Shown here: piece after piece, positions 4,330-60,403 of the stretch
Numbering within the stretch: the first letter of the stretch is position 1
Layout of the letters: each line of letters begins with the position of its first letter
DNA from: Octopus vulgaris
Lineage: Eukaryota
Length of the DNA stretch: 64,000 nt
NCBI GenBank assembly: GCA_951406725.2
Contig: OX597832.1
Coordinates: 12,772,001-12,836,000, forward strand
Direction of reading: 5' to 3'
Position numbers and translations under genes: made by a program
The notes under the pieces: model-generated
The model's input: only the letters and a program-made list of their open reading frames with translations
The model's database searches: none
Told to the model about the DNA's origin: nothing

Positions 4330-5940
4330 CAGATGACTATACAGGATGAGTGATTTAAAACTATACAATTACGAGGGTCAGGTCCAATTATACTGCTCTA
4401 CACATTGGGCATCTGCATAGACGAGGCGTGGATGAATTTAAGGGCACACATCAATGAGTAATTAAGGCAATATGTCCGCGTTTCCGAACAAATATAACAA
4501 ATATATAGAATGATGTTTAATCTGCCGGGGTATGCAGACGTTCTCTTCACTCTCTCCCGTTGTGAATGCAGAGAATTAATCGGTCCTAAAAATGCTTTGC
4601 TAAAAGAAATCAAAATATATAGAAAATTGGGAGAAGAATATATATGTTAGTATGTCAAATTTAGCGGGTTGTATTCAACGATATTATCTCCCTTCTACAT
4701 GATATCAATAAAAATATATTCTAATCTTCAGTGCAAGTACGAAGAGAAACTTCAATGTATATTATACTGGATTCATAAAGATAATATTTTCATACATGTT
4801 AGATTGTAAACAGGCCACAGATGTCTACACCAGTATTGCAAGCAGTAGAAATAATAGTTTCTATTATAGGCACAATGTCAGATGTTTTTGGGGAGGGGAC
4901 TAGTCGATTACATCGACCCCAGAATTTCAGAGGTACTTAATTTATCGACCCAGGCGGAATTTGATCTCAGAACGTAGCCACGGGCGAAATACTGCTAAGC
5001 ATCAATGTTGATTTAACGGCTAGAAAATCTGTTATCAAATTTGATAACAAATTTTGGGCATCGTAAAGATCAATCTGAAAGCATTGATATATCTATGGGG
5101 TCATCAGACTCTACTGAAATAGCTGCTTTGGTCGGTTTTTATATTCTATCAGAAATGGCTGACCATTTCCCGTATATCATCGGTGGTTTTTTTATCACAA
5201 CTGTCTCTTCTACCTCCATAATATCTCTAATCAAAAAAAGTTAATAATTATCTTGTCAAATTCTTTAGTAATATGGGCCTTAATATTATCTTCGATAATG
5301 GTAGAACAAAGGTTAATTTCCTTGACGTAGCTTAAATGCAGTCTTATATTCCCCATACCATAAAACTTTACCCAACGTAAAATGCATCATTATTTTCAAT
5401 AATAACGCTGGACTTGCTTCAACGGAATTGAAACGGCGTATCGCGAATCATATTTCCATATTTTAAGTACAGTCATAAACGTAACTCTACAGGTCTTATT
5501 AAACTAATTTGTGATTCTCAAACACTTTTCTCTTGATTCGGATATTTTATCAAGATCACTTCCCAATGAGAAAAGGAAGTCATTCTGTCCTCTTTGTACG
5601 CACGAACAACTATTTATCCTCTTTTCTAAACCTACATTGGTCAACACCAATAAAGAAGTATTTACAATAGTTTACATTGGGCAAAACACCCTTTCTATTC
5701 AAATAATATCTACCTCTTACCTAATAACATCTGCATCTTAATATTTATTCTTGCTTACCATACCTCCTATACTTTCCTTCATTTTTCTTTCCATCTATCA
5801 TTTATTCCCTATTTACTTTTATCTCAATTTCTCCTTTAATGCTCTTTCTCTCTTCCTTCTCTTCTTCTCTCGCCCTATGACATCAAATTTCTTAACGGCA
5901 ATTTTAAAATTACGAGGGTTCCATATACAACTTTGCTTTC
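4330..5940 (+). mobile_element. Decayed Naiad-type Penelope-like retroelement (RT and GIY-YIG remnants)
   Basis: Broken frames give IDISMGSSDSTEIAALVGFYIL, GLNIIFDNGRTKVNFLDV, AGLASTELKRRIANHIS, RNSTGL and CPLCTHEQLFILFSKPTLVNTNKEVF, in the order expected for Naiad RT then endonuclease. Ends approximate. Confidence 0.85.
4855..5002 (-). mobile_element. SINE family C (Meta/MESC-like core), partial, nested in the PLE
   Basis: GTCGATTACATCGACCCC...GGTACTTAATTTATCGACCC...GCGAAATACTGCTAAGC matches the 37639-37874 copy. Confidence 0.85.
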
Positions 5941-10203: not shown

Positions 10204-10415
10204 AGACAGTGATCGGACAGAATCGTTAGCACCCCGGGCCAATTGTTTCACGGCATTTTTTCATGTTTTTTTTTCTGAGATCAAATTCCGCCGGGGTGTA
10301 CTTTGCCTTTCATCCTTTTGAAGTCAATGAAATATGTACCGCCGGGCTCGATATAATCGACTTCCCTCCTCACCCGAACATGCTGGCTTTGTGCCAAAAT
10401 GGGAAGCCAATATTT
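10204..10415 (+). mobile_element. SINE family C, diverged copy
   Basis: CAGAATCGTTAGCAC...TCAAATTCCGCCG...CTTTGCCTTTCATCCTTT. Confidence 0.85.
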
Positions 10416-16220: not shown

Positions 16221-16439
16221 TACTGGTTTCAAGATTTGGCACAAGCCCATCAATTTAGGATTAGCAAGTTAAGTCAATTACATCGACTCCAGTGCTCAGC
16301 TGGTACTTATTTTATCGTCTCCGAAAAAGTGAATGGCAAAGTCTACATCGGCGGAATTTGAACTCGAACGTAAATGTAGACGAAATTCCGCAAAAGAATT
16401 TAGCTCGGCATGCTAATATATCTATCGACTCGCCGCCTT
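16221..16439 (-). mobile_element. SINE family C, near full length
   Basis: CTGGTACTTATTTTATCG...GGCGGAATTTGAACTC...CTCGCCGCC. Confidence 0.88.
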
Positions 16440-16454
16440 CAGCAAATGGAAAAT

Positions 16455-16605
16455 AATAATATCCTTTCAAATATAGGCAAAAGGCCTGATATTTTGGGGA
16501 AAGTAGCTACATTATATCGTACCAGTGTCAGGCTGGTAAGTCACCTCCGAAATGAAGAGGCAAAGTCGACTATGGCGGAATTTGAATTCGGAATGTAAAG
16601 ATGTA
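16455..16605 (-). mobile_element. SINE family C, partial, adjacent to the previous copy
   Basis: GGCAAAAGGCCTGATATTTTGGGG tail and GCAAAGTCGACTATGGCGGAATTTGAA. Confidence 0.75.
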
Positions 16606-37638: not shown

Positions 37639-37874
37639 CTTATTTCTTTACTGCCCACTAGGAGCTACACGCAGAGGGGACAAACAAGGACAGATAAAAA
37701 GGATTAAGTCGATTACATCGAGCCCAGTGCGTAACTGGTACTTAATTTATCGACCCCGAAAGGATGAAAGGCAAAGTCGACCTCAGCGGAATCTGAACTC
37801 AGAACGTAACTGCAGACGAAATACCTATAAGCATTTCGCCCGGCGTGCTAACGTTTCTGCCAGCTCGCCGCCTT
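37639..37874 (-). mobile_element. SINE family C, young full-length monomer
   Basis: tRNA-like head GGCGGCGAGCTGGCAGAAACGTTAGC, Meta-like core GCCTTTCATCCTTTCGGGGTCGATAAATTAAGTACC; TSD AAACAGACAGTAT at 37626-37638 and 37877-37889. Confidence 0.95.
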
Positions 37875-43794: not shown

Positions 43795-44143
43795 GATCCT
43801 TTCTACTTGAGGGAAGGAGACTAGTCGATTGCAGCGACCCCAGTACTTGACTGTTACTCATTTTATCGACCTCAAAGGTATGAGAGAATGTAAACTCCAA
43901 ATGCAATGCCGGAGGAAGTAATGCTTAATATTTTGCCAGTCACCTTACGGTATTATGTAATAATGATTGGGGGAGGGTCAAGTCGATTATGACGACTACA
44001 AGTTTTCAACAGGTACTTATTTCATGGACCTTGAAAATGGATGACTGGCAAGACTAACATCAGCGGAATTTGAACTCACGATGTACGAAATGCGATTAAG
44101 CATGTTTGCTCAGCGCGCTAATCATTCTACCAGCTCACAGCCT
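43795..44143 (-). mobile_element. Two adjacent diverged SINE family C copies
   Basis: Two GTCGATT...GTACT...TTTATCGACC units (~43795-43945 and ~43965-44143). Confidence 0.78.
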
Positions 44144-51414: not shown

Positions 51415-51886
51415 AGATTGAGGCATGGCTAAAAATTCATTTCTTCGGGAAGAAGGGGGAATTCAAATATATCGACTTCATCAATTGACGGGTACCTCAG
51501 TTATCAACAACGGAAGAAAGAATGGCAACATTGCACCTGATGGTATTTAATTTCATCATACATATTTCTAATAAGTCAGTAAATATCATGAGACATTTTT
51601 ATTTGACACAACGTTTCACTTAACTCACCAAATCAGCGTGCGCGTCCTATAACGCATATATTTTTAATATTAGTCTCAAATTTTGGCACTAGGCCAGCAA
51701 TTTCGTGTGTAAGAAATGAGTCAATTACATCGACCCCAATGCGCAAATGCTACTTATTTAAACAACTCTGAAAACACGAAAAGAATAGCCGACCTCGGCA
51801 ACACTTGAACTCAGAACGTAAAGACGGAAGAAATACCGCTAAGCTTTGTGTATAGCGTGGCAACGATTCAGCATGCTAGCTGCCTT
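51415..51886 (-). mobile_element. Two diverged SINE family C copies
   Basis: ~51415-51550 (weak) and ~51670-51886 with CGACCTCGGC...TTGAACTCAGAACGTAAAGACGGAAGAAATACCGCTAAGC. Confidence 0.75.
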
Positions 51887-58670: not shown

Positions 58671-59633
58671 TCTTTCGTTTTTTATCCTGAAGCCGATGAA
58701 AACGAAATCTATTTTGATTCCTGAAAATATTATCATGCTTGACTGTATGTGTCTACTAGTGAATAAATGTTTTTGTAGTTTGAACATTTAGAATTAAAAA
58801 AAAAAAATGAAAATAAAATGTCCTATGAAAAAAAAAAGTTATTATTAATAAAATGTTATTACATTGACCTTATGAATTCGTGGTGGAATAAAGTTTGTAT
58901 ACTGTTAGAAGAAAGGTCAACCATGAGTTTTACTTTATTTATTTATTTATTTATTTATACATTGGCTTTTCATGAGATTTTATTTGCCATGTCAATTCCT
59001 GGAAGACTGTTGTGCATAGAAAACGAAACATTTCCAGTTAACATGAAACGTAATAAGTAAATTGCGGTGAACATTTTAAACAACAAACGTGGCTTGGGTC
59101 AGATTTCTGTCCTTTGTGATTCACTTCAAAAGACGATATTTTTCAACTGCTCTCATGGATATTGAAAAGAGCGACTCAGCATTTACTATCTCTAGTTTTC
59201 AGGAAATATTTATTATTTTCGTCTTCTATATGGTATTGAATGATAGAAATTAGACCGAACTGGTTAAGTCTTCATTCTGTTTATAACAAAGCCTAAACTA
59301 ACTTTTCCTACAGCGAATGAGATGTATTACAACTACCGTTATAGTTTGGAGATAACCTCTGGAGAGTAAATCGATATCAGCATGTGAGATTATTGGAAGG
59401 ATGAATTTCGAACAGACAAAACATCGTATAACATTATCCTTCTTATACATATGTTGAAATATTTCTTGCTTGTTTTAGGGTTGAGAAATTGATGCGAGAT
59501 TGGAAAATAAAGATGGTGGTAAATCTATTTATATTACCCAAAATGGGAGGAAAATGCTGATATTTCACAATGATACTAAAAGAATCTTCATTGTTTAATC
59601 CACGCACACCCACATTCTGGCATAAATGTAATA

Positions 59634-60403
59634 GTCCTTTCTGCTATAAGCACAAGGCCTGAAATTTTGGTTGGAGGAGCAAGTCGTTTACCTCAACCCC
59701 AGTACTCAACTGGTGCTTAATTTATCGACCCCCGAAAGAATGAAGGGCAAAGTCTAGCACGGAGAAATCTGAACTCGGAACGTATCGGCATACGAAATAC
59801 CTATTTCTTTACTACCCACAAGGGGCTAAACACAGAGAGGACGAACAAGGACAAACAAACGGATTAATTCGATTACATCTATCCCAGTGCGTAACTGGTA
59901 CTTATTTAATCGACCCCGAAAGGATGAAAGGCAAAGTCGACCTCGGTGGAATTTGAACTCAGAGCGTAGCGGCAGAAAAAAATACCTATTTCTTTACTGC
60001 CCACAAAGGGCTAAACACAGAGAGGACAAATAAGGACAGACAAATGGATTAAGTCGATTATATCGACCCCAGCACGTAACTGGTACTTATTTAATCGACC
60101 CCGAAAGGATGAAAGGCAAAGTCGACCTCGTCGGAATTTGAACTCAGAGCGTAGGGGCAAGCGAAATGCACATTTCTTTACTACCCACAAAGGGCTAAAC
60201 ACAGTGAGGACAAATACGGACAGACAAACGGATTAAGTTGATTATATTGACCGCATTGCGTAACTGGTACTTATTTATTCAACCCCGAAAGGATGAAAGG
60301 CAAAGTCGAGGACGGTGGAATCTGAACTCGGAACGTAGCGGCGTACGAAATACCGCTAAGCATTTCACCCGGTGTGCTAACGATTCTCCCAGCTCGCCGC
60401 CTT
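59634..60403 (-). mobile_element. SINE family C multimer: one head, three 185-bp units and a terminal body with a different tail
   Basis: Units at 59801-59985, 59986-60170 and 60171-60353; single 5' head 60354-60403; degenerate TSD at 59619-59633 and 60405-60419 (12/15 identical). Confidence 0.93.

What the first reader, a model, noticed from the sequence alone, without database searches (positions are those of the whole stretch)
59801..60353. Head-less 185-bp SINE multimer with a palindromic tail-to-anticodon junction: possible circular SINE RNA
Seen: in element orientation the head forms an extended arm GAAATGC-TTAGC-GGTATTTC. Each unit ends in the tail ...AAAGAAATAG and the next unit restarts at GTATTTC, the 3' strand of that arm. 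The junction is therefore the near-palindrome GAAATACCTATTTC, clear at 59794-59807 and degraded at the other two. The tail GAAATA can replace the arm's 5' strand, placing the RNA 3' end next to the restart point. Only one A-box head exists. Inference: the RNA is cut in the anticodon-like loop and ligated tail-to-cut into a 185-nt circle copied by rolling-circle reverse transcription, or RT makes a structure-guided template jump. Either would be a retrozyme-like amplification route for a tRNA SINE without a ribozyme. DNA-level tandem duplication is the null model.
Basis: partly seen in the sequence, partly recalled or inferred. Interest (0 to 1): 0.72.

Follow-up and report, generated by a model that had tools for sequence, protein, structure and literature searches.

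The report
SINE that inserts into its own head
A very abundant jumping RNA element in this animal genome ends in six letters that also occur inside its own start; new copies are seen inserted into older copies at that spot, and the joined chains were likely re-copied as single read-through RNAs, which explains tens of thousands of identical head-less repeats without needing an RNA circle.

Summary
The junction is not local: 51,772 exact copies genome-wide, in one register. A rolling circle is not supported. 141 of 158 arrays start with a head and 2 at the junction. Units of dimers and trimers differ as much as random copies. Many arrays end in a foreign tail. A second, non-palindromic junction has 3,288 copies. 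Instead, 222 sites show an old head followed directly by a new head; 22 of 29 inspected have a new copy inserted at GGTATT with a target-site duplication, which creates the junction. This site is hit 8-fold more often than a mid-core control. Whole composites carry one young duplication although their last unit is about twice as diverged, so they were re-inserted as one piece, most likely from read-through RNA; an RT jump at the same 6-nt match is the main rival. Arrays of four or more units grew in place by DNA duplication. This locus looks like an old copy extended in place. New variant of a known kind.

The parts
60354..60402 (-). tRNA-like head with A-box-like motif (60391-60381); the only head in the array
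   Evidence: A-box label recalled from the Pol III type 2 consensus; ARAGORN negative
60347..60366 (-). Hairpin arm GAAATGC-TTAGC-GGTATTTC; its GGTATT is the self-target site
   Evidence: pair probability about 1.0 in head+unit consensus RNA; target role
60170..60353 (-). Unit 1: core + tail A; first 44 nt or more come from the old copy, the rest is A-type
   Evidence: positions 1-46 differ from unit 4 at 6 of 46, from unit 2 at 12 of 44; positions 47-91 differ from units 2 and 3 at 2 of 45, from unit 4 at 7 of 45
60310..60353 (-). Upstream copy of the locus-private segment shared with unit 4
   Evidence: five shared rare variants; haplotype only at this locus
60163..60176 (-). Junction 1 (GAAATG-TG-CATTTC, double change that keeps complementarity)
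59986..60169 (-). Unit 2: head-less core with B-box-like motif + tail A
59979..59992 (-). Junction 2 (one change)
59801..59985 (-). Unit 3: head-less core + tail A; differs from unit 2 at 12 of 93 positions in the 3' half
59794..59807 (-). Junction 3, exact GAAATAGGTATTTC
59629..59800 (-). Unit 4: older core (83% to consensus) with tail B; likely the pre-existing target copy
59757..59800 (-). Downstream copy of the locus-private segment
60405..60415 (-). Candidate old target-site duplication, upstream copy (9 of 11 identical to 59619-59629)
   Evidence: weak, could be chance
59619..59629 (-). Candidate old target-site duplication, downstream copy
   Evidence: weak
37641..37873 (-). Comparator: tail-A monomer of the same family with a clear 13-bp target-site duplication

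Best explanation
The junction is made when a tail-A SINE copy inserts into the GGTATT of an older copy's own head, likely because the RNA's 3' end (…GAAATAGGTATT) base-pairs with that site during target-primed reverse transcription; the new head then likely reads through into the beheaded old copy and the composite is re-inserted elsewhere as one piece. Shown: nested insertions with target-site duplications that create the exact junction; an 8-fold site preference; a link between target sequence and RNA tail haplotype; composites bracketed by one young duplication with an older last unit; DNA-level growth of long arrays. Inferred: RNA-DNA pairing at priming, Pol III read-through as the source of composite RNA, and mobilisation by the L1-superfamily LINE that shares tail A. 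Composite RNAs primed just past tail A would give monomers ending in GGTATT, which closes a feedback loop. The window locus itself looks like a minority case: an old tail-B copy extended in place by three independent A units, with the new 5' end resolved by homology.
For: Nested sites: 222 old-head+new-head matches; 22 of 29 distinct loci inspected show tail|GGTATT plus at least 9 duplicated bases, 14 with shared non-consensus letters. Per-target rate 222/74,644 against 79/212,953 at a mid-core control, ratio 8.0. Ordinary targets: 8 of 27 distinct duplications start GGT in register with the tail end (background 0.9%), all in T171 tails, 8/16 vs 0/11, p=0.008 (tally by hand). Insertions ending about 30 nt into the next unit carry duplications (L034, L039), so some templates held the junction. 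H-A-B1 composites have a whole-element duplication in 23 of 44 (4.1% mismatch), like A monomers (22 of 38, 4.6%) and unlike B1 monomers (6 of 30, 10%), p=0.007. B1 after the junction is as diverged as B1 monomers (0.077 vs 0.074) and older than the A unit in front (0.075 vs 0.032; A less diverged in 22 of 25). No run of four T in the consensus. Tail A matches the 3' end of an APE-RT LINE. Adjacent units in arrays of four or more differ by 0.030, with stepwise shared variants.
Against: Visible nested sources are rare: 1 of 84 junction loci by script, about three more by eye. B1 cores follow a junction more often than their own head (1,837 vs 587), so each source must have had many daughters. 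Still, 54 B1 parts showed no pair sharing a private set of variants, and one donor search found no sibling (40 of 6,407 candidates scored). Both fit an RT jump as well or better. The nested-site pattern selects insertions near GGYATT, and only one control site was tested. All targets favour NNTAT, so endonuclease preference may contribute. No RNA evidence was obtained. The duplication at the window locus (44 nt or more) is longer than the 9-18 bp seen elsewhere.
Confidence: 0.6

Rival explanations
1. RT template jump in trans: reverse transcription starts on the RNA of an old B (or A) copy, pauses at the head hairpin and jumps to the 3' end of a tail-A RNA through the GGTATT match, so each composite forms anew at insertion.
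For: Young whole-element duplications with old, non-clonal last units; few visible nested sources; A-unit diagnostic sites in near linkage equilibrium, r2 at most 0.13 in 207 first units; stable hairpin at the site.
Against: Old B RNAs seldom gave young monomers (6 of 30 with a duplication), so the jump would have to happen nearly every time. No pile-up of 5' truncations at the site (2 of 158 arrays; none without a head remnant among 25 head-less copies). It does not explain the nested loci, which make the junction without a jump.
Confidence: 0.25
2. One or a few founder dimers spread as an ordinary complex SINE family, with later DNA-level changes in unit number.
For: Invariant register (97 of 100 listed); junction type linked to tail haplotype; long arrays are homogeneous.
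Against: Downstream partners belong to at least three tail types and are as diverse as monomers; new junctions are seen forming at nested loci.
Confidence: 0.07
3. One reading: RNA cut in the loop, ligated tail-to-cut and copied by rolling-circle reverse transcription.
For: Fixed junction; in a head-less RNA the tail is predicted to pair next to the 5' end, so a circle, or a single founding ligation, is structurally possible.
Against: Head-first arrays, foreign terminal tails and unrelated neighbouring units; second non-palindromic junction; little covariation; no hammerhead core or Rfam ribozyme.
Confidence: 0.04
4. Pure local DNA tandem duplication of a monomer at each locus.
For: Explains arrays of four or more units (0.030 adjacent divergence, stepwise variants).
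Against: Dimer and trimer units differ as random pairs do; it cannot join tail A to a tail-B copy or give one breakpoint at over 50,000 places.
Confidence: 0.04

Closest known systems
Dimeric and complex SINEs; tandem B2-B2, B1-B2 copies (PMC3531059 and PMC8466645, passages)
   Same: Multi-unit elements that arise by insertion of one SINE at another or from dimeric templates; PMC8466645 leaves open which route applies to mouse tandems.
   Different: Here insertion is into the head at one fixed 6-nt site, the old copy loses its head, unit number varies, and the downstream partner is any of thousands of old copies.
SINE-derived satellites (sSat) of squamates (PMC10702118, abstract, background and passages)
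   Same: Tandem units shorter than the SINE; longer arrays are more uniform; DNA-level recombination is proposed.
   Different: Most loci here have 2-4 unrelated units with target-site duplications, so they are retroposed composites; only long arrays behave like sSat.
Tx1-mobilised SINEU-3 of crocodilians (PMC4494074, passages)
   Same: A SINE with a preferred site in an abundant repeat, giving tandem copies by sequential insertion.
   Different: The target there is a Mariner element, chosen by endonuclease specificity; here it is the SINE's own head, preference is modest (8-fold) and tracks the RNA's tail haplotype.
3' microhomology priming of LINEs and SINEs (PMC6007223, discussion section and passages)
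   Same: The RNA 3' end matches the first bases of the target-site duplication; duplications of similar length.
   Different: That paper reports one or two bases for animal elements; here up to six unique-sequence bases, matching a site inside the element itself.
Animal non-LTR retrozymes (PMC7761336 passages; bioRxiv 10.64898/2026.07.22.740005 abstract)
   Same: Dispersed tandem arrays of 150-300-bp units.
   Different: No hammerhead, a Pol III head at the start of the array, mixed tails, unrelated neighbouring units, no circle shown.

Membership tests
tRNA-derived SINE (SINE2) | Short, interspersed, at least 100 copies | tested here: met
   232-bp monomer; core 11-mer has 212,953 matches
tRNA-derived SINE (SINE2) | At least 60% identity to a tRNA in the head | tested here: inconclusive
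   A- and B-box-like motifs seen by eye against recalled consensus; ARAGORN and Rfam negative; no tRNA alignment made
tRNA-derived SINE (SINE2) | Variable target-site duplications | tested here: met
   9-18 bp in 27 of 64 distinct tail-A insertions
tRNA-derived SINE (SINE2) | 3' region shared with a partner LINE | tested here: met
   Tail A aligns to the 3' end of an APE-RT-zf LINE, score 57.5 vs shuffle maximum 45.5 of 1000; no partner found for tails B or C
Named octopus or Ceph SINE families (OK, OR1, OR2, Ceph) | Sequence identity to the published consensus | not testable with these tools
   No Repbase or SINEBase library here; the original papers were seen only as references
Non-LTR retrozyme | Hammerhead ribozyme in each unit | tested here: not met
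   No CTGANGA on either strand of the consensus; no Rfam ribozyme hit
Non-LTR retrozyme | Monomeric circular RNA in vivo | not testable with these tools
   No raw RNA run listed
Non-LTR retrozyme | Arrays are repeated copies of one template | tested here: not met
   Dimer and trimer units differ by 0.10, as random pairs do
SINE-derived satellite (sSat) | Four or more homogeneous tandem units from part of a SINE | tested here: inconclusive
   Met by long arrays elsewhere (7 and 24 units; 0.030 divergence); not met by the window locus
Complex (dimeric) SINE family | Fixed composition descending from one founder | tested here: not met
   Variable unit number; diverse, non-clonal downstream partners
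Tx1-clade partner LINE | RT phylogeny within Tx1 | not tested
   Closest solved relative is human L1 ORF2p, E=3e-49; the Tx1 label is recalled only

The most novel reading that the evidence does not exclude
A SINE that has become self-homing through its RNA: its 3' end acts as a 6-nt guide to its own head, beheads old copies, puts them behind a fresh promoter and re-mobilises them, so that the family recycles its dead copies and recombines as a population (diagnostic sites near linkage equilibrium). A loop-cut, tail-paired RNA, possibly a circle, may have founded the junction once.
Probability: 0.4. Interest if true: 0.72.

Novelty: new variant of a known kind. Interest (0 to 1): 0.52.

Why it matters
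[quoted passage not shown] It shows a testable path from dispersed SINE to multimer to satellite. It suggests that old copies can be re-mobilised behind a new head, which departs from the master-gene picture and would bias repeat-age estimates: one insertion holds parts of two ages. It also warns that an invariant head-less tandem junction is not by itself evidence of a circular RNA.

Tried and rejected
RNA: no RNA holder listed and no raw reads. Laying contigs of four runs showed the junction as a loose end in a run of another organism label (X16) but cannot address circles or RNA ends. Rfam and ARAGORN: nothing. Whole-array folding is no more stable than shuffles (z 0.32; monomer z -1.55). 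Palindrome covariation: 38 compensated double changes genome-wide against roughly 13 expected from rates resting on only 2 and 6 events in 222 junctions; not taken as selection. Seamless in-place insertion as the general route: rejected, since unit 1 has the B-type T13/T15 in 4 of 81 arrays and unit 2 in 23 of 81, both in 1, and whole-element duplications are young. An RTE partner, my first guess from memory, was dropped for tail A. Donor search for one B part was inconclusive. RNA editing as the cause of older-looking B parts: common changes are C>T and G>A. Earlier scan findings: none. A review on SINE dimer origin was not held.

Full report
Observation. The minus strand holds one head (60402-60354), three core+tail-A units and a fourth core with a different tail B ending at 59629. 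TRF gives period 184 and 3.7 copies. The three junctions lie at 60163, 59979 and 59794. The host is a 2.8-Gb genome rich in microsatellites. I recall the element as an octopus SINE, but no call names the organism or the family.

The junction is genome-wide. The 18-mer has 51,772 exact matches, reversed control 0. A gapped pattern has 28,196 matches, and 97 of the 100 listed are in one register, counted by eye. In 463,900 unselected bases, 37 elements carried tail A: 14 parsed as monomers and 23 as multi-unit, mostly two units, with one array of 7 and one of 24. A second fixed junction joins tail A to head position 15, is not palindromic and has 3,288 exact matches. The two junction types go with different tail haplotypes, so the junction is mostly inherited with the template.

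Test of the circle. A head-less circle copied by rolling RT should give head-less arrays of near-identical units. Of 158 arrays, 134 start with a head, 7 with a head remnant, 15 inside a unit and 2 at the junction point; 69 end in tail A, 67 in tail B or C and 22 inside a unit (the set is enriched for B ends, and the nested-selected loci were left out). Adjacent units differ by 0.103 in dimers (n=26) and 0.102 in trimers (n=14), against 0.099 for random pairs; in arrays of four or more they differ by 0.030 (n=57). Long arrays show stepwise shared variants (L069, L065, L055), as expected from repeated duplication in place. In the intact consensus RNA the native arm forms with probability about 1 and the tail pairing about 0; in a head-less RNA the tail pairs at 0.87-0.99. 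Of 222 junctions, 173 were exact; there were 12 left-arm and 28 right-arm changes, and 2 junctions were compensated.

How the junction is made. A pattern for old head, GGYATT, up to 30 nt and a new head has 222 matches. Of 30 loci fetched, one was a duplicate; 22 of the other 29 show the new copy ending AAAGAAATA, then the duplicated target from GGTATT on, then the rest of the old copy; 14 share non-consensus letters on both sides, for example L103, L116, L124, L125. A mid-core control has 79 matches. With 74,644 and 212,953 available targets the rate ratio is 8.0; only this one control was run. Outside SINEs, 27 of 64 distinct tail-A insertions had a duplication of 9-18 bp (one row was counted twice and removed); 8 targets begin GGT in register with the tail end, against 0.9% background, and all 8 belong to T171 tails (8 of 16 vs 0 of 11, p=0.008). 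This points to RNA-DNA pairing, in line with the priming model discussed in PMC6007223, but all targets also favour NNTAT.

How single-head arrays spread. Head-A-B1 composites have a duplication around the whole element in 23 of 44 cases with 4.1% mismatch, like A monomers (22 of 38, 4.6%) and unlike B1 monomers (6 of 30, 10%) (p=0.007; one locus appears twice and one row is mis-parsed). Their B1 part is as diverged as B1 monomers (0.077 vs 0.074) and more than the A unit in front (0.075 vs 0.032, 22 of 25); CpG decay agrees in direction (0.21 vs 0.16). So an already old copy was re-inserted together with a young one. Read-through from nested loci is the simplest source: the consensus has no T4 run, and insertions that stop about 30 nt into the next unit have duplications (L034, L039). 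Against this, visible nested loci are 1 of 84 by script, B1 cores follow a junction 1,837 times and their own head 587 times, and 54 B1 parts show no clonal pair. This needs many sources, each with many daughters, and leaves an RT jump at the same 6-nt match as a live rival.

This locus. Units 1 and 4 share five rare variants within 44 nt, and that haplotype occurs twice in the genome, both here. Beyond position 46 unit 1 resembles units 2 and 3. The flanking duplication is weak, 9 of 11. I infer an old tail-B copy that was extended in place, with the new 5' end resolved by homology or by later unequal exchange with an empty allele. This is a minority route.

Partner. The last 55 nt or so of tail A align to the 3' end of a LINE found 13 times in the fetched loci. 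In L138 it encodes endonuclease, RT and zf-RVT domains, closest to human L1 ORF2p among solved structures. Mobilisation by it is inferred.

Literature. Ten full-text searches listed no paper whose title or abstract start describes this multimer or a SINE that targets its own head. Read: PMC13282606 part 1 of 3 and a supplement search; PMC10702118 part 1 of 5 and passages; PMC6007223 passages and one section; passages of PMC5804259, PMC3531059, PMC4758252, PMC7761336, PMC4824008, PMC4494074 and PMC8466645; the abstract of bioRxiv 10.64898/2026.07.22.740005. The original octopus and Ceph SINE papers and the repeat libraries were not seen, so the family, and perhaps its tandem form, may already be catalogued.

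Verdict. A real and widespread feature. It is not a retrozyme-like circle on the genomic evidence. It is best read as a SINE that inserts into its own head and re-mobilises the composites, with DNA-level growth of long arrays.

Noticed in passing
L138:5798-9086 (minus), 3' end near L138:5400-5470: L1-superfamily LINE (endonuclease, RT, zf-RVT) whose 3' end matches SINE tail A; 13 such ends among the fetched loci.
   Followed up: partly
207 first units across fetched loci: Diagnostic sites of tail-A units are near linkage equilibrium (r2 at most 0.13), unlike hierarchical SINE subfamilies; the family seems to recombine.
   Followed up: partly
G000:C5 about 60,091,500-60,098,000 (L142): Arrays of 24 and 7 units with duplicated flanks: satellite-like expansion of the unit.
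   Followed up: no
L073-L102: Second fixed junction, tail A joined to head position 15, with 3,288 exact copies, linked mainly to C171 tails.
   Followed up: partly
L018, L036, L177, L196: Chains of full-length copies inserted at the AT-rich tail of earlier copies, a separate head-to-tail clustering.
   Followed up: no
L096:- near 2179 of the reversed locus: Tail-A copy inserted at GGTACTT on the opposite strand of another SINE core, with a 14-bp duplication.
   Followed up: no
G000:C4:19472626-19472931: Tandem array of the 55-bp head fragment alone (listing).
   Followed up: no
window 4850-4992, 10273-10395, 16269-16597, 43811-44078, 51665-51836: Older, truncated copies of the same family with other tails.
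   Followed up: partly
L138:756-1967 (minus): A second, different RT-encoding frame next to the L1-like element.
   Followed up: no
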